Below, in pieces: positions 4,619-20,846 of a stretch of 24,537 bases of DNA; within the stretch, counting starts at the first letter, position 1, and each line of letters opens with the position of its first letter. The notes under the pieces were generated by a model. The model did no database searches. It saw only the letters and a list, made by a program, of their open reading frames with translations, and was not told the DNA's origin. The stretch comes from a phage, in NCBI GenBank assembly GCA_025881525.1, contig GCA_025881525.1_4849.1. One strand, written 5' to 3'. The position numbers were made by a program, and so were the translations under genes.

Positions 4619-4825
4619 ATGCGCAGCTATGCAGGATTTACACAGGAGGAAAAAGAGCAGGTCTATTCACTGGCGCGGGCTGGCGTGCCTGATGATGTGA
4701 TTTGCCGTAGGTATGACATCGACGAGGATTTCCTGCTGCGCGTTATTGATGATGTTTTCGTTAACCTGCAAGAGAAACGCGGGTACAAGGGTATCTGCTG
4801 CAAGAATGATTTTTTGAGAGGGTGA
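4619..4825 (+). CDS. hypothetical protein (68 aa)
   Basis: ORF track 4442-4825; ATG 4619 with GGAG RBS preferred since upstream part overlaps terminase. Confidence 0.5.
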   Translation: MRSYAGFTQEEKEQVYSLARAGVPDDVICRRYDIDEDFLLRVIDDVFVNLQEKRGYKGICCKNDFLRG

Positions 4826-4829
4826 AAAC

Positions 4830-5027
4830 ATGAAAAGCATAATGAAAAGAATGGTCCGGGCATATGATAAAGAACTGTGCGTATTCAGAGATATGCGTAA
4901 TAACAAGAAAAAGCGCAGAGCTACGGCGCGCCAGTTAGCATCATATTACGATGAGGACGTTGCGATTGAATGCCAGGAGGATGCCGATGAATTTGCTCGT
5001 GATGATATTTACTATATGGTTAACTGA
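4830..5027 (+). CDS. hypothetical basic protein (65 aa)
   Basis: ORF with GAGAGGGTG RBS. Confidence 0.5.
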   Translation: MKSIMKRMVRAYDKELCVFRDMRNNKKKRRATARQLASYYDEDVAIECQEDADEFARDDIYYMVN

Positions 5028-5044
5028 TTTTGAGAGGGTGATGG

Positions 5045-5215
5045 ATGATTGTTATTGAAGACGAAACAAAAACGCCAATGTGCACGATAGCGATTGACTT
5101 TAACTCTGACCCTATGATCACTCAGGGTCATGACACTATTATTATTGACAAACATCAAGCAGCACAGCTAATCGAAGTCCTGCAACGCTGGGTTAATGGT
5201 GAGGAGATTGAGTGA
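5045..5215 (+). CDS. hypothetical protein (56 aa)
   Basis: GAGAGGGTG RBS (13-nt duplicate of the RBS region at 4812-4824); below ORF-track cutoff; TGATG overlap with next gene. Confidence 0.4.
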   Translation: MIVIEDETKTPMCTIAIDFNSDPMITQGHDTIIIDKHQAAQLIEVLQRWVNGEEIE

Positions 5216-5400
5216 TGAGCGTTTATTTTATTCATGCTGAAGTTATGTGGGCTGGTGATACCATCAAGAAGATTTCATGTATGGCCTCTACAAGTAATGC
5301 CATTGAAGCGTTTAACTCATTTATGATTTGCAGTGAGGTTAATGAGTTTAAATCTGGCGGGTATGATGTTGTCATTGATAAACTAGAAAAGGTAGAGTGA
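5215..5400 (+). CDS. hypothetical protein (61 aa)
   Basis: ORF track 5212-5400 (GTG); ATG 5215 with GGTGAGGAG RBS preferred. Confidence 0.5.
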   Translation: MSVYFIHAEVMWAGDTIKKISCMASTSNAIEAFNSFMICSEVNEFKSGGYDVVIDKLEKVE

Positions 5401-5876
5401 TGATTGATTGGGTATCTTTATTTGATTATGATGGAGTGTCTTTGGTGTGGAAGCATGGAAGGGGAGGTGTTTCCGTTGGCAGCATTGCGGGAACGGTTAA
5501 TGCTGGCGGGTACATTCAACTCAAAGCTAACGGAAGATTTTATTATGCCCACAGAATTATATGGGAAATGCATAACGGGCAAATACCTGACGACATGGAG
5601 ATTGATCATATAAACCACAACAAGGCGGACAACAGGATTGAGAATTTGCGTCTTGTTCGACACAAAACTAACACTAAAAACGCGCCTAAATACAAAAATA
5701 ACACCAGCGGCGTTACTGGTGTGAGTTGGTATAAGAGAGATAAAAAATGGCTAGCACAAATAATGGTTGATGGCAATTACATACGTCTTGGTCTTTTTGA
5801 TAATTTCGAAGCAGCAGTCGCCGTAAGAAAGGAAGCAGAACTAAGGTATGGATTTCACAAGAACCACGGCACTTGA
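5400..5876 (+). CDS. HNH homing endonuclease with AP2-type DNA-binding domain
   Basis: HNH motif EIDHINHNKADNRIENLRLV followed by AP2-like GVTGVSWYKRDKKWLAQIMVDGNYIRLGLFDNFEAAVAVRKEAE. Confidence 0.85.
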   Translation: MIDWVSLFDYDGVSLVWKHGRGGVSVGSIAGTVNAGGYIQLKANGRFYYAHRIIWEMHNGQIPDDMEIDHINHNKADNRIENLRLVRHKTNTKNAPKYKNNTSGVTGVSWYKRDKKWLAQIMVDGNYIRLGLFDNFEAAVAVRKEAELRYGFHKNHGT

Positions 5877-5885
5877 TGATATAAT
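5877..5885 (+). promoter_or_regulatory. extended -10 promoter element TGATATAAT upstream of portal gene
   Basis: Perfect TGnTATAAT directly after HNH stop codon, about 30 bp before portal ATG. Confidence 0.35.
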
Positions 5886-5913
5886 GACCCTTGCAGAAAT
5901 GTGAGGGTTTTTT

Positions 5914-7329
5914 ATGAGCGACAAAATCGCAGTATTGAATGCGTACATTAAGGATAGAGTGGCGAACAACAACCGGGCGATTCAGCAACAGCGGCTTTGT
6001 GCTGGCGGGAAGAATCTTGACCAGAAGCACGATCGTCTCTGGACGGAGTGCGGGTACCCACAGGAAATCACTGCCGAGATGTTCCGCTATGCCTATGAGC
6101 GACACCCAGCCGCCGCCGCTGGCATTAACCGCATTATTAATAAATGCTGGCAGAAATACCCTGAAGTGGTAGAAGATGGCGAGGATGACAAGAATTCTAC
6201 ACCGTGGGAGTTGTCCATCAACGACATGATGAAGCGTGCTTATCCGTTCATCAAAGAGGCTGACAAGCGCAACGCCATCAACCGCTATTCCGCTGTTATC
6301 CTGCAAATCCGTGACGGCAAGCAATGGAGTGAGCCAGTAGACATCACCAAAACCCGCCGCATTAAAGATAAATCCATTGTTCGATTCATTCCGGTATGGG
6401 AAGAACAACTACGAGTCAGCGCATGGAATAATGACGAAACCAGCGAAGACTACGGAATGCCAGAGATGTACGAATACCAGGAAAGCGCCGTAGAGGATTT
6501 CGATAGCGACGGAAAGCCTGAACGTTCCGTGCAGATTCATCCTGACCGCATCATTATTCTGGCTGAGGGTAGTTTTGATGGCAGCATGTTCAGCGGCATC
6601 CCAATGTTGCGTGCTGGCTACAACAGTCTTATCGACATGGCTAAAGTTTCAGGAAGTTCTGCGGAAGGCTTCCTGAAGAATGCAAGCCGACAACTGGCTG
6701 TTAACTACACGAAGGATAACGTAACGCCAGCAAGCCTCGCACAGTCGATGGGTGTCGATATTGAAGAACTAACCGACATCATGAATGAGAACATCGAAGC
6801 GCTGAACTCAGGTATCGACGCCGCTATGTTCACAATGGGAGCTGATGCAAAAGTTCTCGCTGTGACGCCAGCCGACCCGAAACCAACATGGGAAGTAGCC
6901 GCCAACCAGTTCGCTGCATCAATGGCGCTTCCGTTCACCGTCATCTTTGGTCAGCAAACCGGGCGCCTTGCAAGCGATGAGGACAAGATGCAGGAGGCGA
7001 TGACTGCCAAGCAGCGCCGAGAAACATGGGTTGATTATGTCATCTCAATGTTCGTTGAGCGCATGATTCAGTTCGGCATTGTCGATAAAGCACCGGCAAA
7101 TGGCTACAAGGTTAAGTGGGATGACCTGCTTGCCCCATCTGAACTGGATAAAGCTGAATTGCTGTCTAAGCTCGCCACTGCCAACAAGTCGTTCTTTGAT
7201 GCTGGTCAATCTGCGTTGCTGACCGTCGATGAAGCTCGCGGCATGGTTGGCATGGAGCCGATTGAACTTGACGAGAGTTATCGCGAAGACATGCCACCGG
7301 AAGATGAAAATGAAGATATTCCGGTTTAA
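5914..7329 (+). CDS. portal protein (putative)
   Basis: 471 aa, acidic C-terminus, sits between terminase and Mu F-like gene; GAGGG RBS; assignment by size and synteny. Confidence 0.7.
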
Positions 7330-17067: not shown

Positions 17068-18138
17068 ATGGAAAAGATTATTTTTACCAAAGACCTGGTA
17101 GCCAACTCCGCAGTGGTGGCTGACCAGTGGAAACATCTCACCATCGACCGCAAGGTGTTCTGCAACGCAGAAGCTGAGCTGGCTAAAACCTATGGTGTTA
17201 ACGCCACTGCACTGGTAACGAAAGATTACTGGCGCGACGTGGACAACGTCACGACCCGTGTTTTCCGCAACGAGGCTGGTCAGGATATGATGGCTGACCT
17301 GATGGGTATCGCGGCAAACATCAATATCGGTAAGACTGTGGCAATCAGCCGTATCGCTTCCGATGCTGGCAAGGTCGTCCGCACCCTGTCTGGTCAGGAG
17401 CCGGAAGATTTGGATAAAACTCGCTACGATTACACTGGCGATGTGATTCCAATCTTCAAGACTGGCTACAGCCGCGAATGGCGCGAACTGCTGGGTATGC
17501 AGTCCGAAGGTTTTGACCCGCTGCTGGACGATCAGGCTAACGTCACCTTTAACCTGCGTTCAGATATGGCACAATACCTGCTGACTGGCGACCAGACTCT
17601 GAACGTGAATGGCGTTTACACTGGCTACGGTATCACCAACCACCCGAACACTGTTCAGGTTAACCTGAATGCTTCCGGCGGTCTGAATATCGACCTGCAA
17701 ACTGCAACGCCAGACGAAATCGTGACCTTCTTCAATCAGGATTTCCAGGCTATTCTGGATGCACAGAACGTATTTGAGCAGGTTACTCTGTGGGTTTCCC
17801 CGGCAGTACGTCGCAGCTTCATGCGTCCGTATTCTAACGCGGCAGGCTTCAAAGGTGGCACTGTTGAGCAGTACATCACGCAGTTCGGCAATGGTCGCAT
17901 CGGCAAGATTGGCACCAACTTCCTGCTGACTGGTAACCATTTCGTTGGCTATGTTCGCAACGACATGTACATCCGTCCGCGTGTTGCTCAGCCAGTTTCC
18001 ACCTATGCGGCAGCCCGTGACAATCCGCACGATAACTTTAACTTTATGGTGTGGTCTGCTTTTGGTCTGCAGATTCGCAAGGATGCCGCTGGAAAAAGCC
18101 GCGTCTTTAATGGCTATGGTAGCCAGGAAGCTAAATAA
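17068..18138 (+). CDS. major capsid protein (putative)
   Basis: 356 aa, position after scaffold/decoration genes, followed by strong terminator; synteny-based. Confidence 0.6.
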   Translation: MEKIIFTKDLVANSAVVADQWKHLTIDRKVFCNAEAELAKTYGVNATALVTKDYWRDVDNVTTRVFRNEAGQDMMADLMGIAANINIGKTVAISRIASDAGKVVRTLSGQEPEDLDKTRYDYTGDVIPIFKTGYSREWRELLGMQSEGFDPLLDDQANVTFNLRSDMAQYLLTGDQTLNVNGVYTGYGITNHPNTVQVNLNASGGLNIDLQTATPDEIVTFFNQDFQAILDAQNVFEQVTLWVSPAVRRSFMRPYSNAAGFKGGTVEQYITQFGNGRIGKIGTNFLLTGNHFVGYVRNDMYIRPRVAQPVSTYAAARDNPHDNFNFMVWSAFGLQIRKDAAGKSRVFNGYGSQEAK

Positions 18139-18170
18139 TAAAAAAGGGGGTTTATCCCCCTTCTTTGTAT
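18136..18170. terminator. bidirectional hairpin terminator (AAGGGGG-tttat-CCCCCTT) flanked by A-run and T-tract
   Basis: Read directly; minus-strand HNH gene stop codon lies in the loop. Confidence 0.65.
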
Positions 18171-18958
18171 CTAATTTCACCGTAAACCATGTACTGTAAC
18201 ATGTAACAAAACTCCCATTCCGTCATATCTGTCCGTAGCCACTTCCTGTTCTTCTTGTAATTGTACTCCGCCGGCTCCGCTTTTAAATTGTGAAGAGCAT
18301 TAACCAGTTCTGGATATACGAGGTTATTCTTAACAAACCAGTTGACAGATAAAATATGGTCAATATGCCAATTATTGCGGTCATCAAAACTCATCCATGG
18401 AAGCATGGTTGATTTTATATGCTTAATGAAATCATCCTTTGAGTACCCGAGAACATCATCTACCGTTCTATCAAGCGCAATGTCAGATACTCTCATATCA
18501 AGCCGCTCAAGCATTTTTCTTAGGAACACGTGGTGTGGGTGCTTCTTTTGCCATTGCCTGACATTATCCAGAGCCTTTTTATTGCCTTTCTCTGAGTAGT
18601 ACCATCTGCGATAAGCTTCCCTTTTCTTTTGTAAAAACTCCTCCTTTTTCTCTGGATTCTCGTTAAGCCTTTGCATCTTCCTTTTGTTGTACTCCTGTTG
18701 TGATTGTTTTCTTTTCTTTTTGTACTCGCTGTTATCCTTGTTTTTCTGCCACTCCTTTTTTCTGTACTCACTTTCCTTGCGTTTGCGCTCCTCTGTTGTT
18801 CTCTGCTTCCTTGTTCTTTCGTATACGCAATGCTTGCACCCACATGATGCCGTAAAAAACACAGTTCCACCACATACAGAGCATGGGACCCATTCACATA
18901 TAAATTGCTTCAATCCAGCAACTCTTGCTTCTCGCGCGGCTTCTTTTCTTGTTTTCAT
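18152..18958 (-). CDS. HNH homing endonuclease with N-terminal Cys cluster and long Lys/Arg/Glu-rich linker
   Basis: C-terminal NWHIDHILSVNWF...N motif; N-terminal CEWVPCSVCGG...CGCKHC; AT-rich coding region; opposite strand to flanking structural genes; ATG 18958 preferred over GTG 18967. Confidence 0.8.
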   Translation of the reverse strand: MKTRKEAAREARVAGLKQFICEWVPCSVCGGTVFFTASCGCKHCVYERTRKQRTTEERKRKESEYRKKEWQKNKDNSEYKKKRKQSQQEYNKRKMQRLNENPEKKEEFLQKKREAYRRWYYSEKGNKKALDNVRQWQKKHPHHVFLRKMLERLDMRVSDIALDRTVDDVLGYSKDDFIKHIKSTMLPWMSFDDRNNWHIDHILSVNWFVKNNLVYPELVNALHNLKAEPAEYNYKKNRKWLRTDMTEWEFCYMLQYMVYGEIRYKEGG

Positions 18959-19045
18959 AAAAGTCACTCCTAATTTGGTTCTATATTACTACAGGTGTAA
19001 TGAGTGTGCTACAATTGACCTGCATTAACTCATGAGGATATTTAA

Positions 19046-19243
19046 ATGGCTAAATACGAAGTCATCGCACGCGGAATCTTTGTTAAAGAGAAAGGCAAGA
19101 TTCGTGAATTGCAGCTTGGCGAGGTGATTACCGAACCAGATGAGCATCTGCTGCCAAAACTGCGCGTTATGCCAGAACTGGAAAAGTCTTTCGAAGTCGC
19201 AACCCCGCAAGAAAAGACGACAAAGAGAAAGAAAGCAGAGTAA
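19046..19243 (+). CDS. hypothetical protein (65 aa)
   Basis: GAGGA RBS; immediately followed by terminator. Confidence 0.5.
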   Translation: MAKYEVIARGIFVKEKGKIRELQLGEVITEPDEHLLPKLRVMPELEKSFEVATPQEKTTKRKKAE

Positions 19244-19244
19244 A

Positions 19245-19272
19245 CTGAACCCGCATAATGCGGGTTTTTTAT
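19245..19272 (+). terminator. Rho-independent terminator (CCCGC-ataat-GCGGG followed by TTTTTT)
   Basis: Read directly. Confidence 0.65.
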
Positions 19273-19283
19273 TGGGGGTTTCT

Positions 19284-20102
19284 ATGGCTGTCAGGTACGA
19301 AATAAACACAACTCCGGCTGATGGAGAGGTTTTGCTTAGCGAAACCATGTCAGCAGACTGGTCAGCACTGCAGGTACAGATTGTGCCGCTAAATTCTTCC
19401 GGTGGCTATGAGCCATTAACAAGCGGAACCGTGTCCGTGAAGGTGTCGCCATTTGAATCTGGCAACTACTGGATTGACGTCAACAATAATAATTATTATG
19501 GCGTGGCGCTGCGACTGAAGGTGATCAAGTCACAGATACCTGCTGGCATTGCATCTCTGAAAGTCCTGGTATGGCGAACTGCTACATCAGTACCATCAAG
19601 TCAGGTTGTCGCGCAGTCCTATGCAGAGTTTGCCAACAAGCAAGGCAAGCTGTTCACTGCGTCTCGCAGAGTAACTGATGTTGCTGGCGGAGCCAGCCTT
19701 GACAGCATATTTATCACCGGAACAAAGCAGGTGATATTCAACCAGCGCATTATTGGTTACACAGGGAAAGGTGTTGTTGCATCAATCTATCGCGGTGCTG
19801 TTGCCACTGGTGGCACGGCGGCAGAGATTAACAACCCAAACGACATAACGCCACAGGCAGCCACTGCGCAGTTAATTACTGGCGCCACCGTGACAAACAT
19901 CGGGCAGCTGACGGTAGCAGCAACATACAGTGAGGGAAACGCATCGAATCAGGGGCAGGGTAACTCTCAGGCGAAGCTCGGCGAGCAGATTATCATGGCA
20001 CCAAATACGACGTATTTGCTTCGCATAACATCACTGGATACTGCGGTGCAGAATATCAATGCGTACGTTTCATGGTTTGAGGATGATACTTATCTGGCGT
20101 GA
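19284..20102 (+). CDS. hypothetical protein, Ala/Thr/Gly/Ser-rich (272 aa), possibly structural
   Basis: ATG 19284 with GGGGGT RBS; track ORF 19140-20102 would read through the terminator, so the shorter form is preferred. Confidence 0.6.
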   Translation: MAVRYEINTTPADGEVLLSETMSADWSALQVQIVPLNSSGGYEPLTSGTVSVKVSPFESGNYWIDVNNNNYYGVALRLKVIKSQIPAGIASLKVLVWRTATSVPSSQVVAQSYAEFANKQGKLFTASRRVTDVAGGASLDSIFITGTKQVIFNQRIIGYTGKGVVASIYRGAVATGGTAAEINNPNDITPQAATAQLITGATVTNIGQLTVAATYSEGNASNQGQGNSQAKLGEQIIMAPNTTYLLRITSLDTAVQNINAYVSWFEDDTYLA

Positions 20103-20136: not shown

Positions 20137-20673
20137 CTACAGACGCATCGGCATAACAACAATCTTCGCAGCCTCGCCAGTTGGCGCACTAAGGCAGCAA
20201 ACTGCGGCATTTGTATTTCCGTTTAGTTCAAACTTAACGCTGCAGAATTTAGGATTGAACAGCTTCGTGGCTTTCTCAATATCAACAAGGTAGCCAGCAT
20301 TGAAGCCAATTTCCTCTGCTGGCAAGGTCTGATTCGGAATGACGCGATCAATATCAGGGAATCGGCCATCAATCTCTTCGCAGATACCAGCACCAACCAT
20401 TACACCAGCTTCATGATGATACGTTGCAATTTTCGAATTTGTATCAATAATGGCGTAGTCATAGCGTTTTGTTGGAGATTTCCCAATCTTGATGATCGCA
20501 TTTTCTGTCAGCTTATTGTCATGGTTGCCACCAATAAATGCGCGATGACCGTCAGTTGATGCAATGCGACCATCAGGCATGAAGCAAATACCATTCAGGT
20601 AATATCGCACATCATTGCGCGCCTGAAATATTAACGCTGATTCAAGTAATAATTTGCTGATTTTTAGTTTCAT
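20137..20673 (-). CDS. truncated beta sliding clamp (DnaN) homolog: domain II plus C-terminal part of domain III, no domain I
   Basis: Blocks DVRYYLNG, TDGHR, DGRFPD..RV.P, EIGFN and C-terminal VVMPMRL match E. coli DnaN residues about 130-366 as recalled; 178 aa versus 366 aa. Confidence 0.75.
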   Translation of the reverse strand: MKLKISKLLLESALIFQARNDVRYYLNGICFMPDGRIASTDGHRAFIGGNHDNKLTENAIIKIGKSPTKRYDYAIIDTNSKIATYHHEAGVMVGAGICEEIDGRFPDIDRVIPNQTLPAEEIGFNAGYLVDIEKATKLFNPKFCSVKFELNGNTNAAVCCLSAPTGEAAKIVVMPMRL

Positions 20674-20846
20674 CACTTCATCTTAATCATATGTTGTTTT
20701 GCAACCTTCAGGCATTCTTCAAAAATGCCACCCTTCTTTGCGCTCTGGTGACGCTTGTAATACTTAATTGCCGCATCAATTGCCATCTGGTCGATATCTG
20801 GCAGCTTGGCGCGCAGCTGTTTTTCGATAAATTGTTCAGCGTTCAT
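20673..20846 (-). CDS. hypothetical small protein (57 aa)
   Basis: Fills gap in minus operon; ATGA overlap with downstream DnaN-like gene; below ORF-track cutoff. Confidence 0.35.
   Translation of the reverse strand: MNAEQFIEKQLRAKLPDIDQMAIDAAIKYYKRHQSAKKGGIFEECLKVAKQHMIKMK

What the first reader, a model, noticed from the sequence alone, without database searches (positions are those of the whole stretch)
18152..18958. Second HNH endonuclease inserted antisense after the capsid gene, ending inside the capsid terminator hairpin
This HNH protein differs in architecture from the AP2-HNH at 5400-5876: N-terminal Cys4-type cluster, a roughly 100-residue Lys/Arg/Glu-rich low-complexity linker and a C-terminal HNH motif. 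Its gene is AT-rich, lies on the opposite strand to the flanking structural genes, and its stop codon falls in the loop of the bidirectional terminator at 18136-18170. These are typical marks of a free-standing homing endonuclease insertion next to an essential gene.
Basis: partly seen in the sequence, partly recalled or inferred. Interest (0 to 1): 0.45.

Follow-up and report, generated by a model that had tools for sequence, protein, structure and literature searches.

The report
Mobile HNH nuclease gene after capsid gene
A nuclease gene of the HNH type sits backwards right after the phage's capsid gene as a roughly 0.9-kb cassette that most related phages lack; it looks like an ordinary selfish "homing endonuclease" gene, from a subfamily that standard domain libraries miss.

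Summary
ORF 18152-18958 (-) encodes a 268-aa protein. Its stop codon lies in the loop of a hairpin (18144-18162) that scores as a terminator on both strands, 13 nt after the capsid (MCP) stop. Its GC content (40.8%) is in the lowest 2% of the window.

Pfam, NCBIfam and PDB sequence searches give no HNH hit. The HNH assignment rests on other evidence:
- PHROG 1035, E=1.7e-17.
- A profile search finding 7082 related clusters, with D200-H201, N224, N233 and K236 invariant in a 73-sequence alignment of them.
- An AlphaFold model (pLDDT 93.6) with a beta-beta-alpha core.
- 23 significant fold matches to viral proteins, many of them named HNH.

The "low-complexity linker" is a confidently modelled helical region. 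In relatives it is a 15-residue tandem repeat.

Comparative data support a mobile cassette:
- Only 14 of about 206 related phage records carry the gene, always at this site; 149 have an intact empty site.
- Its synonymous divergence disagrees with that of the flanking MCP in both directions.
- A near-identical block of about 800 bp covers the MCP tail plus most of the gene.
- dN/dS is 0.08-0.16.
- Frameshifted copies exist.

Cleavage and homing are inferred, not shown. Verdict: a new member of a known kind, of modest interest.

The parts
18152..18958 (-). Gene for a 268-aa HNH-superfamily nuclease (stop codon at 18152-18154).
   Evidence: ORF list. PHROG 1035 at E=1.7e-17. Orthologues in 14 phage records. 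dN/dS 0.08-0.16.
18824..18958 (-). Residues 1-45: N-terminal helix plus a zinc ribbon with ligands C26, C29, C41 and C44.
   Evidence: The four Cys are conserved in the clade. C41 and C44 are invariant and C26 nearly so across 73 distant relatives, where the second ligand is usually His (PCxxGH). The model has strands at 18-20 and 34-36.
18494..18823 (-). It is the presumed DNA-binding module.
18251..18370 (-). Residues 197-236: beta-beta-alpha metal-finger core (WHIDH ... NLKAEP ... AEYNYKK).
   Evidence: Model elements: strand 197-201, strand 225-229, helix 230-236. D200, H201, N224, N233 and K236 are invariant in 73 sequences. Fold matches to proteins named HNH or HNHc. Profile match to the BrxU His-Me finger at E=0.067.
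18155..18241 (-). Residues 240-268: C-terminal extension specific to this clade, ending in ...EIRYKEGG. Its last codons form the terminator stem and tract.
   Evidence: Most distant relatives end near profile position 237. The KEGG or KEEGA(T) ending is conserved in the clade.
18139..18170 (.). Hairpin terminator shared by the convergent MCP and nuclease genes. The nuclease stop codon sits in its loop.
   Evidence: Terminator scan on both strands. Folding z-scores of -3.8 and -5.2. Conserved in 12 of 12 carriers with compensatory stem changes and three different stop codons.
18150..19044 (.). Extent of the cassette relative to empty-site relatives, about 895 bp. It replaces about 30 bp of spacer (the 3' half of the resident terminator plus the RBS of the 65-aa gene).
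   Evidence: Junction alignments with HC6, Bas78, Bas80 and PHA46_2. Synteny map against Bas78. No flanking direct or inverted repeats.
18959..19045 (.). Divergent intergenic region. It holds the Shine-Dalgarno AGGAG of the nuclease gene (18967-18971, minus strand) and the new RBS GAGGA for the 65-aa gene. No convincing sigma-70 promoter was found for the minus strand.
   Evidence: Sequence. The promoter scan found no more sites than the shuffles.
18049..18138 (+). 3' tail of the MCP gene, which travels with the cassette as a low-divergence block.
   Evidence: Window vs ST1UNAM: 2 mismatches over 18049-18838. Window vs CHRF: 4 mismatches over 18058-18886. The flanks show 4-19 mismatches per 100 bp. 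Identity to insert-free relatives collapses in the last 60-150 nt of MCP.
17068..18138 (+). Major capsid protein gene (left flank, essential).
   Evidence: PHROG 771 at 5e-134. Annotated as MCP or coat protein in relatives.
19046..19243 (+). Conserved 65-aa gene (right flank).
   Evidence: PHROG 2138 at 5e-25. Present in all relatives examined.

Best explanation
The ORF is a free-standing, selfish nuclease gene of the HNH (His-Me finger) superfamily.

The cassette. It is about 895 bp long (about 18150-19044). It sits between the major capsid gene and a conserved 65-aa gene, convergent with the capsid gene, and it shares the capsid gene's hairpin terminator.

The protein has three parts:
- an N-terminal zinc ribbon;
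- a basic array of helical repeats, which probably lies along DNA and supplies site recognition;
- a C-terminal beta-beta-alpha catalytic core, with H201 as the general base, N224 structural and N233 as the metal ligand.

Proposed mechanism (inferred). When a carrier phage and a cassette-free relative infect the same cell, the enzyme nicks or cuts the empty allele near the capsid-gene 3' end or its terminator. Recombinational repair then copies the cassette from the carrier, together with a short stretch of the capsid-gene tail. The occupied site is immune because the cassette replaces half of the resident terminator and the RBS spacer.

What is shown:
- the insertion polymorphism;
- strict site specificity across several genera;
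- a history that disagrees with that of the flanks;
- a recent block of exchange centred on the gene;
- purifying selection;
- conserved catalytic residues.

What is inferred: nuclease activity, the target, and nuclease-driven homing as opposed to passive spread.
For: Nuclease identity:
- PHROG 1035 at E=1.7e-17.
- 7082 related clusters at E<=1e-3, most sharing the whole architecture.
- D200, H201, N224, N233 and K236 invariant.
- hhalign probability 98.6% to P0018, which carries the classic WHIDHIxP...NLxPL...N..KG motif.
- Pfam HNH hit weakly by 16 of 73 distant members.
- AlphaFold model with pLDDT 93.6 and strand-strand-helix at 197-236.
- 23 BFVD fold matches at E<=1e-3, including 'HNH endonuclease', 'HNHc domain' and 'intron encoded endonuclease'.
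- The top PDB Foldseek hits are all HNH domains, though not significant.

Mobility:
- 14 carrier records against 149 intact empty sites, out of about 206 relatives.
- The same site is used in Skatevirus, Saltrevirus, Swiduovirus, Macdonaldcampvirus and Klebsiella phages, and in 4 metagenomic contigs.
- Among the close carriers the HNH dS is 0.04-0.17 while MCP dS is 0.24-0.37. Against sal3 and ZCEC08 the HNH pS is about 0.8 while MCP pS is 0.25-0.28.
- A near-identical block of about 800 bp covers the MCP tail and most of the gene.
- dN/dS is 0.08-0.16.
- Frameshifted copies occur at poly-A runs in three contigs.
- There are no TIRs or TSDs and no intron-like RNA.
- GC is in the lowest 2% of the window.

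Context:
- Distant homologues also sit next to essential genes. One is convergent after the major head gene in Jedunavirus, one lies between a likely portal gene and a head-morphogenesis gene in a Vibrio phage, and one is beside the DNA polymerase gene in Kolesnikvirus.
- This matches the published pattern for phage homing endonuclease genes (PMC10448857).
Against: - No curated library (Pfam, NCBIfam, PADLOC) and no PDB sequence search recognises the domain in this protein.
- No cleavage site is known.
- The capsid-tail polymorphism is not strictly linked to the cassette. The empty-site phages Bas80 and PHA46_2 have a similar tail, so it is not clean evidence of co-conversion.
- Phage genomes of this group are mosaic, and ordinary homologous recombination through the conserved flanks could produce the same distribution without any nuclease action.
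- The same spot holds an unrelated non-nuclease gene (Phage_gp49_66) in LPST10 and others. The site is therefore a general hotspot for accessory genes.
- No minus-strand promoter was identified.
Confidence: 0.7

Rival explanations
1. A passive accessory gene ('moron'). The nuclease serves the phage, for example by degrading host or competitor DNA or by excluding co-infecting phages. It spreads only by ordinary homologous recombination through the conserved flanks, not by cutting the empty allele.
For: The same intergenic spot holds an unrelated non-nuclease gene (Phage_gp49_66) in LPST10, Bas81, INT55 and STGO-35-1. A second variable gene lies about 300 bp away. The cassette has deviant GC and its own terminator. 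Purifying selection fits a useful function equally well.
Against: The whole clade is confined to this single site in every genome seen. Family members elsewhere also sit next to essential genes. Frameshifted copies and the low-divergence block centred on the gene fit a selfish life cycle better. There is no hit to defence-system models.
Confidence: 0.2
2. An endonuclease VII-type resolvase of branched DNA, as the PHROG 1035 label says, working in recombination or in packaging clean-up.
For: PHROG 1035 is annotated 'endonuclease VII'. T4 endonuclease VII also belongs to the His-Me finger superfamily and binds zinc through four Cys (from established knowledge).
Against: Pfam Endonuclease_7 does not appear even at E<=10. 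A family profile search of the PDB, which holds T4 endo VII structures, gives no such match at E<=1. The Cys cluster is N-terminal (residues 26-44) and far from the catalytic core, and there is no Cys in residues 190-240. A resolvase needed for packaging would not be missing from more than 90% of close relatives.
Confidence: 0.05
3. A packaging-associated HNH protein of the HK97 gp74 type, which assists terminase in cos cleavage.
For: It is an HNH-type protein encoded within the head-gene region.
Against: It is absent from most relatives. It is not adjacent to terminase. Relatives such as Bas78 already encode another HNH endonuclease upstream of the terminase genes. It is antisense to the structural operon.
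Confidence: 0.03
4. A decayed or non-functional ORF. The HNH-like motif is a relic or a chance resemblance.
For: No curated domain hit. Frameshifted copies exist.
Against: Full-length copies are conserved from 52% to 99% amino-acid identity, with dN/dS of 0.08-0.16 and pN far below pS. The catalytic residues are invariant across a family of 7082 clusters. The model is high-confidence.
Confidence: 0.02

Closest known systems
Free-standing HNH homing endonuclease genes of phages (T4 Mob genes, the T5 F-Tfl enzymes, and the HNH genes surveyed in ICP1 and other phages, PMC10448857)
   Same: A stand-alone nuclease gene inserted between conserved genes, next to an essential gene. It is sporadic among close relatives, has deviant composition, its history disagrees with that of its flanks, and it marks a boundary of genetic exchange (PMC10448857).
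   Different: The domain architecture differs: zinc ribbon, helical repeat array, then a long-insert HNH. It is not the AP2-HNH or HNH_3 types, and Pfam does not recognise it. No cleavage data exist for this clade.
PHROG 1035 ('endonuclease VII') phage protein family
   Same: The protein and all relatives tested match this family over most of their length (E 1.7e-17 to 4e-32).
   Different: The window's clade is a small, divergent branch: 14-19 clusters at 90% identity among 5.8 billion proteins. It has degenerate repeats and an extra C-terminal helix of about 29 residues. The family label is not supported by any direct match to endonuclease VII.
DUF1524 / GmrSD-type His-Me finger (BrxU 7p9k, SspE C-terminal domain 7dri)
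   Different: The matches are not significant. Those proteins are defence enzymes with DUF262 or other N-terminal domains. There was no PADLOC hit here.
STPR DNA-binding repeats (Bombyx FMBP-1, PDB 5d23; PMC4856987)

Membership tests
HNH / His-Me finger nuclease superfamily | Beta-beta-alpha metal-finger fold. | tested here: met
   AlphaFold model with pLDDT 93.6: strand 197-201, strand 225-229, helix 230-236. 23 BFVD matches at E<=1e-3, many named HNH or HNHc. Matches to solved HNH domains are only weak.
HNH / His-Me finger nuclease superfamily | Catalytic His (usually D-H) at the end of strand 1, a structural Asn, and an Asn or His metal ligand in the helix. | tested here: met
   D200, H201, N224 and N233 (plus K236) are invariant in a 73-sequence alignment of distant relatives.
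HNH / His-Me finger nuclease superfamily | Match to a curated HNH model (Pfam PF01844 or related) above the gathering score. | tested here: not met
   No HNH-clan family is listed for this protein even at E<=10. NCBIfam gives none. Only 16 of 73 distant relatives hit PF01844 weakly, with a best E of 1.7e-4.
HNH / His-Me finger nuclease superfamily | Divalent-metal-dependent DNA cleavage. | not testable with these tools
   Needs biochemistry.
Free-standing homing endonuclease gene | Present or absent among close relatives at one defined site between conserved genes. | tested here: met
   14 carriers against 149 intact empty sites among about 206 records. The same site is used in four or more genera and in 4 metagenomic contigs.
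Free-standing homing endonuclease gene | Evolutionary history independent of the flanking genes, or a co-conversion tract. | tested here: met
   Synonymous divergence disagrees with the flanks in both directions. A near-identical block of about 800 bp includes the MCP tail. Caveat: a similar MCP tail also exists at empty sites.
Free-standing homing endonuclease gene | Not inside an intron or intein. | tested here: met
   The MCP ORF is intact and contiguous. No Rfam intron match.
Free-standing homing endonuclease gene | The enzyme cuts the cassette-free allele, and the cassette is over-inherited in crosses. | not testable with these tools
   Needs cleavage assays and co-infection crosses.
T4 endonuclease VII family (Pfam PF02945) | Sequence match to Endonuclease_7 or to solved endo VII structures. 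| tested here: not met
   Not listed at E<=10. No endo VII chain appears at E<=1 in the PDB profile search.
T4 endonuclease VII family (Pfam PF02945) | Zinc-binding Cys residues interleaved with the catalytic motif. | tested here: not met
   The conserved Cys residues are at 26, 29, 41 and 44. There are none in residues 190-240.
HK97 gp74-type packaging HNH | Encoded next to the terminase genes and conserved throughout the lineage. | tested here: not met
   It lies after MCP and antisense to it, and is absent from more than 90% of relatives. A different HNH gene lies upstream of the terminase genes in Bas78.
Insertion sequence / transposon | Terminal inverted repeats and a target-site duplication. 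| tested here: not met
   No direct or inverted repeats flank the cassette. No transposase-like domain.
Moron (independent transcription unit between two phage genes) | Its own promoter and terminator, with deviant base composition. | tested here: inconclusive
   The terminator and low GC are present. No convincing minus-strand sigma-70 promoter was found upstream.
STPR DNA-binding repeat domain | Tandem repeats of 23 residues with conserved Glu1, Thr/Ser2 and Arg9. | tested here: not met

The most novel reading that the evidence does not exclude
The central region may be a modular DNA-reading array rather than a linker. In the wider family (7082 clusters at 50% identity) it is a variable-number array of 2-8 copies of a 15-residue helical repeat, with consensus E-x-x-[KR]-x-[YW]-[RY]-x-x-N-[KR]-[ED]-[KR]-[IV]-x. 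On this reading it tracks the DNA major groove the way STPR repeats do, each repeat reads a few base pairs, and repeat number and sequence set the target of the attached HNH nuclease. That would be an undescribed class of repeat-based DNA recognition in phage homing endonucleases.
Probability: 0.15. Interest if true: 0.65.

Novelty: new member of a known kind. Interest (0 to 1): 0.3.

Why it matters
- Annotation. Every GenBank record examined calls this gene 'hypothetical protein'. Identifying it as an HNH-superfamily, probably homing, nuclease corrects that for a group of Salmonella, E. coli and Klebsiella siphoviruses that are being developed for therapy and biocontrol.
- Recombination. The gene marks a recombination boundary at the end of the capsid gene, which bears on how capsid modules are exchanged between these phages.
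- Detection. HNH nucleases with a long insert in the catalytic finger escape Pfam and NCBIfam, so surveys of homing endonucleases that rely on those libraries undercount them.
- Terminator overlap. The stop codon lies in the loop, and the last Lys, Glu and Gly codons form the stem and the U-tract complement. This arrangement is conserved with three different stop codons. It is a neat example of dual coding constraint, though not a new principle.

Tried and rejected
- Curated libraries. Pfam, NCBIfam, PADLOC and a PDB sequence search with the single protein gave only composition-driven noise.
- First AlphaFold run. With the 15-sequence clade alignment the catalytic region came out at pLDDT below 50, so that model was unusable. 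Only the 73-sequence alignment with distant relatives gave a confident model.
- Capsid-tail polymorphism as proof of co-conversion or target immunity. I dropped this as strong evidence after finding empty-site phages (Bas80, PHA46_2) with a carrier-like tail.
- Transposon or IS origin. Rejected: no TIRs or TSDs.
- Intron-encoded ORF. Rejected: the MCP ORF is intact and there is no Rfam match.
- Packaging HNH and endonuclease VII resolvase. Rejected on distribution, position and failed sequence tests.
- Promoter. The promoter scan gave nothing above chance for the minus strand.
- Literature. Searches for the carrier phages and for links between HNH and STPR or repeat arrays found nothing about this gene.
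Full report
**1. The observation**

The window carries an ORF on the minus strand at 18152..18958 (268 aa from the ATG; an alternative GTG lies at 18967). AGGAG lies 8 nt upstream of the ATG (18967-18971, minus strand).

The ORF is convergent with the major capsid protein (MCP) gene at 17068-18138 (PHROG 771, 5e-134). A conserved 65-aa gene follows at 19046-19243 (PHROG 2138).

The TAA stop is the reverse complement of 18152-18154. It lies in the loop of the hairpin GGGGG-TTTAT-CCCCC, which starts 13 nt after the MCP stop. The scan calls this hairpin a terminator on both strands, with a TTTTTT tail on the minus strand. It folds far better than shuffled sequence, with z-scores of -3.8 and -5.2.

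GC is 40.8%, against 47.0% for the window and 51.8% for MCP. That puts the ORF in the lowest 2% of same-size windows.

**2. Is it an HNH nuclease?**

Curated libraries say nothing:
- Pfam lists no HNH-clan family even at E<=10.
- NCBIfam gives only composition-driven noise.
- PADLOC gives nothing.
- A PDB sequence search gives nothing.

Deeper evidence reverses it.

- The protein matches PHROG 1035 ('endonuclease VII') over residues 2-257 at E=1.7e-17. All relatives tested match it too.
- The close clade is tiny: 14-19 clusters at 90% identity in 5.8 billion proteins.
- A profile of that clade finds 7082 clusters at E<=1e-3 and 618 at E<=1e-10. Most are about 240 aa and align over the whole architecture.
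- In a 73-sequence alignment of these, C41, C44, D200, H201, N224, N233 and K236 are invariant. The consensus C-terminus reads GY[ST]..L..HIE..F..GMSW.N..EWHIDHI.P...F......IN.L.NL.PLW...N.SKG.
- hhalign links the clade to P0018, which carries this classic motif, at 98.6% probability.
- 16 of the 73 relatives touch Pfam HNH weakly.
- The best PDB profile match is the His-Me finger of BrxU, at E=0.067.

An AlphaFold model built on the clade alone was poor in the catalytic part. With the 73-sequence alignment it reached pLDDT 93.6 and shows strand 197-201 (WHIDH), strand 225-229 and helix 230-236, which is a beta-beta-alpha finger.

I conclude that the protein is an HNH/His-Me finger nuclease of a long-insert type that Pfam does not capture. 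The 'endonuclease VII' label is not supported. There is no Endonuclease_7 match, no endo VII chain in the PDB profile search, and the Cys cluster is N-terminal rather than interleaved with the catalytic motif.

**3. The rest of the protein**

The N-terminus has a conserved CxxC...CxxC (C26, C29, C41, C44). In the wider family the second ligand is usually His (PCxxGH).

It is nevertheless modelled as five to six helices at pLDDT of about 97.

In the wider family this region is a tandem repeat. The spacing between successive [YWF]xxxN motifs peaks sharply at 15 residues (142 cases), with further peaks at 30 and 45. There are 2-8 in-phase copies in 76 of 150 representatives, and the consensus is E-x-x-[KR]-x-[YW]-[RY]-x-x-N-[KR]-[ED]-[KR]-[IV]-x. 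In the window protein the repeats are degenerate.

**4. Comparative genomics**

The window belongs to a group of about 47-kb siphoviruses of Salmonella, E. coli and Klebsiella (Skatevirus and allies). About 205 phage records match the flanks.

Only 14 records carry the gene. It is always between MCP and the 65-aa gene and always antisense. The carriers are:
- VSt472 (Skatevirus);
- 64795_sal3 (Saltrevirus);
- CF-SP1 (Swiduovirus);
- CHRF_10023.1 (Macdonaldcampvirus);
- ZCEC08, ST1UNAM and KE08/12/13;
- Klebsiella phages BUCT610 and RCIP0071.

Four metagenomic contigs show the same arrangement.

An empty-site probe from Bas78 is matched over at least 80% of its length in 149 of 206 records. In these the MCP stop is followed by its own terminator (GGGGC-GAAA-GCCCC-TTT), an RBS and the 65-aa gene, a gap of about 42 bp.

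A third state exists. An unrelated plus-strand gene of the Phage_gp49_66 family occupies the same spot in LPST10, and an insert of about 340 bp is present in Bas81, INT55 and STGO-35-1.

Relative to empty sites the cassette spans about 18150-19044. The left junction lies inside the hairpin: homology with Bas80 runs through ...TAAATAATAAAAAAGGGG and then stops. The right junction lies just before the ATG of the 65-aa gene. There are no flanking repeats and no RNA family.

**5. Signs of independent movement**

- Synonymous divergence disagrees with the flanks in both directions. Against VSt472, ST1UNAM and CHRF the nuclease gene has dS of 0.04-0.17 while the adjacent MCP has 0.24-0.37. Against sal3 and ZCEC08 the nuclease gene is saturated (pS about 0.8) while MCP pS is 0.25-0.28.
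- Between the window and ST1UNAM there are 2 mismatches from 18049 to 18838. Between the window and CHRF there are 4 mismatches from 18058 to 18886. The flanks have 4-19 mismatches per 100 bp. This recently exchanged block covers the last roughly 90 nt of MCP, the terminator and about 85% of the nuclease gene.
- Identity to insert-free relatives is 90-100% over most of MCP but collapses over its last 60-150 nt.
- The gene is under purifying selection, with dN/dS of 0.08-0.16.
- Three contigs carry copies split by single-base changes in poly-A runs. One is a +1 change in a sal3-type allele. Two contigs share a -1 change in a BUCT610-type allele. This is consistent with occasional decay, although assembly error cannot be excluded.

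One caution applies. The carrier-type MCP tail (…SQEAK) has close counterparts at empty sites in Bas80 (…DQAAK) and PHA46_2. The tail polymorphism alone therefore does not prove co-conversion or target immunity.

**6. The terminator overlap**

In all 12 carriers examined the stop codon lies in the hairpin loop. The stop is TAA, TAG or TGA, and the stems differ in a compensatory way (GGGGG/CCCCC, GGGGGC/GCCCCC, GGGGCC/GGCCCC).

The last codons (AAA GAA GGG GGx) form the stem and the complement of the MCP terminator's U-tract. That explains why the C-terminus ...YKEGG is so conserved.

The final roughly 29 residues are a clade-specific extension beyond the point where most relatives end.

**7. 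Mechanism and rivals**

The best explanation is a free-standing homing-type HNH nuclease gene (confidence about 0.7). On this reading the zinc ribbon and the helical array bind DNA. The finger nicks or cuts the cassette-free allele near the MCP 3' end or terminator during co-infection. Repair then copies the cassette and a short MCP tail. Activity, target and drive are all inferred.

The rivals are:
- A passive accessory gene whose nuclease benefits the phage (0.2). This is favoured by the fact that the site also hosts a non-nuclease gene.
- An endonuclease VII-like resolvase (0.05).
- A gp74-type packaging HNH (0.03). Bas78 already has another HNH gene upstream of its terminase genes.
- A dead ORF (0.02).

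Distant family members also sit beside essential genes. One is convergent after the major head gene in Jedunavirus, one lies between a likely portal gene and a head-morphogenesis gene in a Vibrio phage, and one is beside the DNA polymerase gene and another HNH gene in a Kolesnikvirus. This is the published pattern for phage homing endonuclease genes (PMC10448857).

**8. Novelty**

HNH homing endonuclease genes next to capsid genes are well known, and the protein falls in an existing PHROG. This is a new member of a known kind.

It is of modest interest for three reasons: every record examined annotates it as hypothetical, curated domain libraries miss it, and its family carries a repeat array that has not been studied. 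Interest is 0.3.

The most novel reading still open is that the 15-residue repeats form a modular DNA-reading array (probability about 0.15).

Noticed in passing
It lies in a segment (4825-5959) with no counterpart in Bas78, immediately upstream of the block matching the portal gene. It therefore looks like a second sporadic nuclease insertion, of the HNH+AP2 type discussed in PMC10448857.
   Followed up: partly
window 19284-20102 (+): A 272-aa gene of unknown function (PHROG 5335, 8e-69) is a second present/absent gene, independent of the nuclease cassette. It is present in the window, ST1UNAM, HC6, BUCT610 and CF-SP1. It is absent in VSt472, Bas78, sal3, ZCEC08, LPST10 and PSM3377. In metagenomic relatives it is replaced by 123+465-aa or 120+524-aa genes, the last with a faint collagen hit. 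A strong terminator at 19247-19267 precedes it.
   Followed up: partly
L008 2682-3029 (Salmonella phage LPST10); also Bas81, INT55 and STGO-35-1: The same MCP/65-aa intergenic site holds a different, plus-strand 115-aa gene of the Phage_gp49_66 family (Pfam 1.5e-34) in LPST10. An insert of about 340 bp is present in the other three phages. The site is therefore a hotspot with at least three states.
   Followed up: partly
window 20137-20676 (-): Annotations of this 179-aa gene conflict. GenBank records call it 'DNA polymerase III beta subunit'. RefSeq and PHROG 3007 (7e-61) call it 'RusA-like Holliday junction resolvase'. It also matches a processivity-factor PHROG at 7.5e-10.
   Followed up: no
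L022 2501-3308; L023 1500-2296; L024 2157-2953 (metagenomic contigs): In these contigs the nuclease gene is split into two overlapping ORFs by a single-base change in a poly-A run. One has A7 to A8 in a sal3-type allele. Two have A6 to A5 in a BUCT610-type allele. This is either real decay or assembly error.
   Followed up: partly
L014 2680-3393 (Klebsiella phage KLPPOU148 gp53, Jedunavirus): A distant homologue (PHROG 1035, 4e-32) in an unrelated myovirus is also convergent with the major head protein gene and lies immediately downstream of it. I did not check whether it is sporadic there.
   Followed up: no
Family-wide (proteins P0020-P0167): The central region of the wider family is a 15-residue tandem repeat with a [YW]xxxN core. 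76 of 150 representatives have 2-8 in-phase copies. No Pfam model covers it, and the literature searches turned up no description of it.
   Followed up: partly
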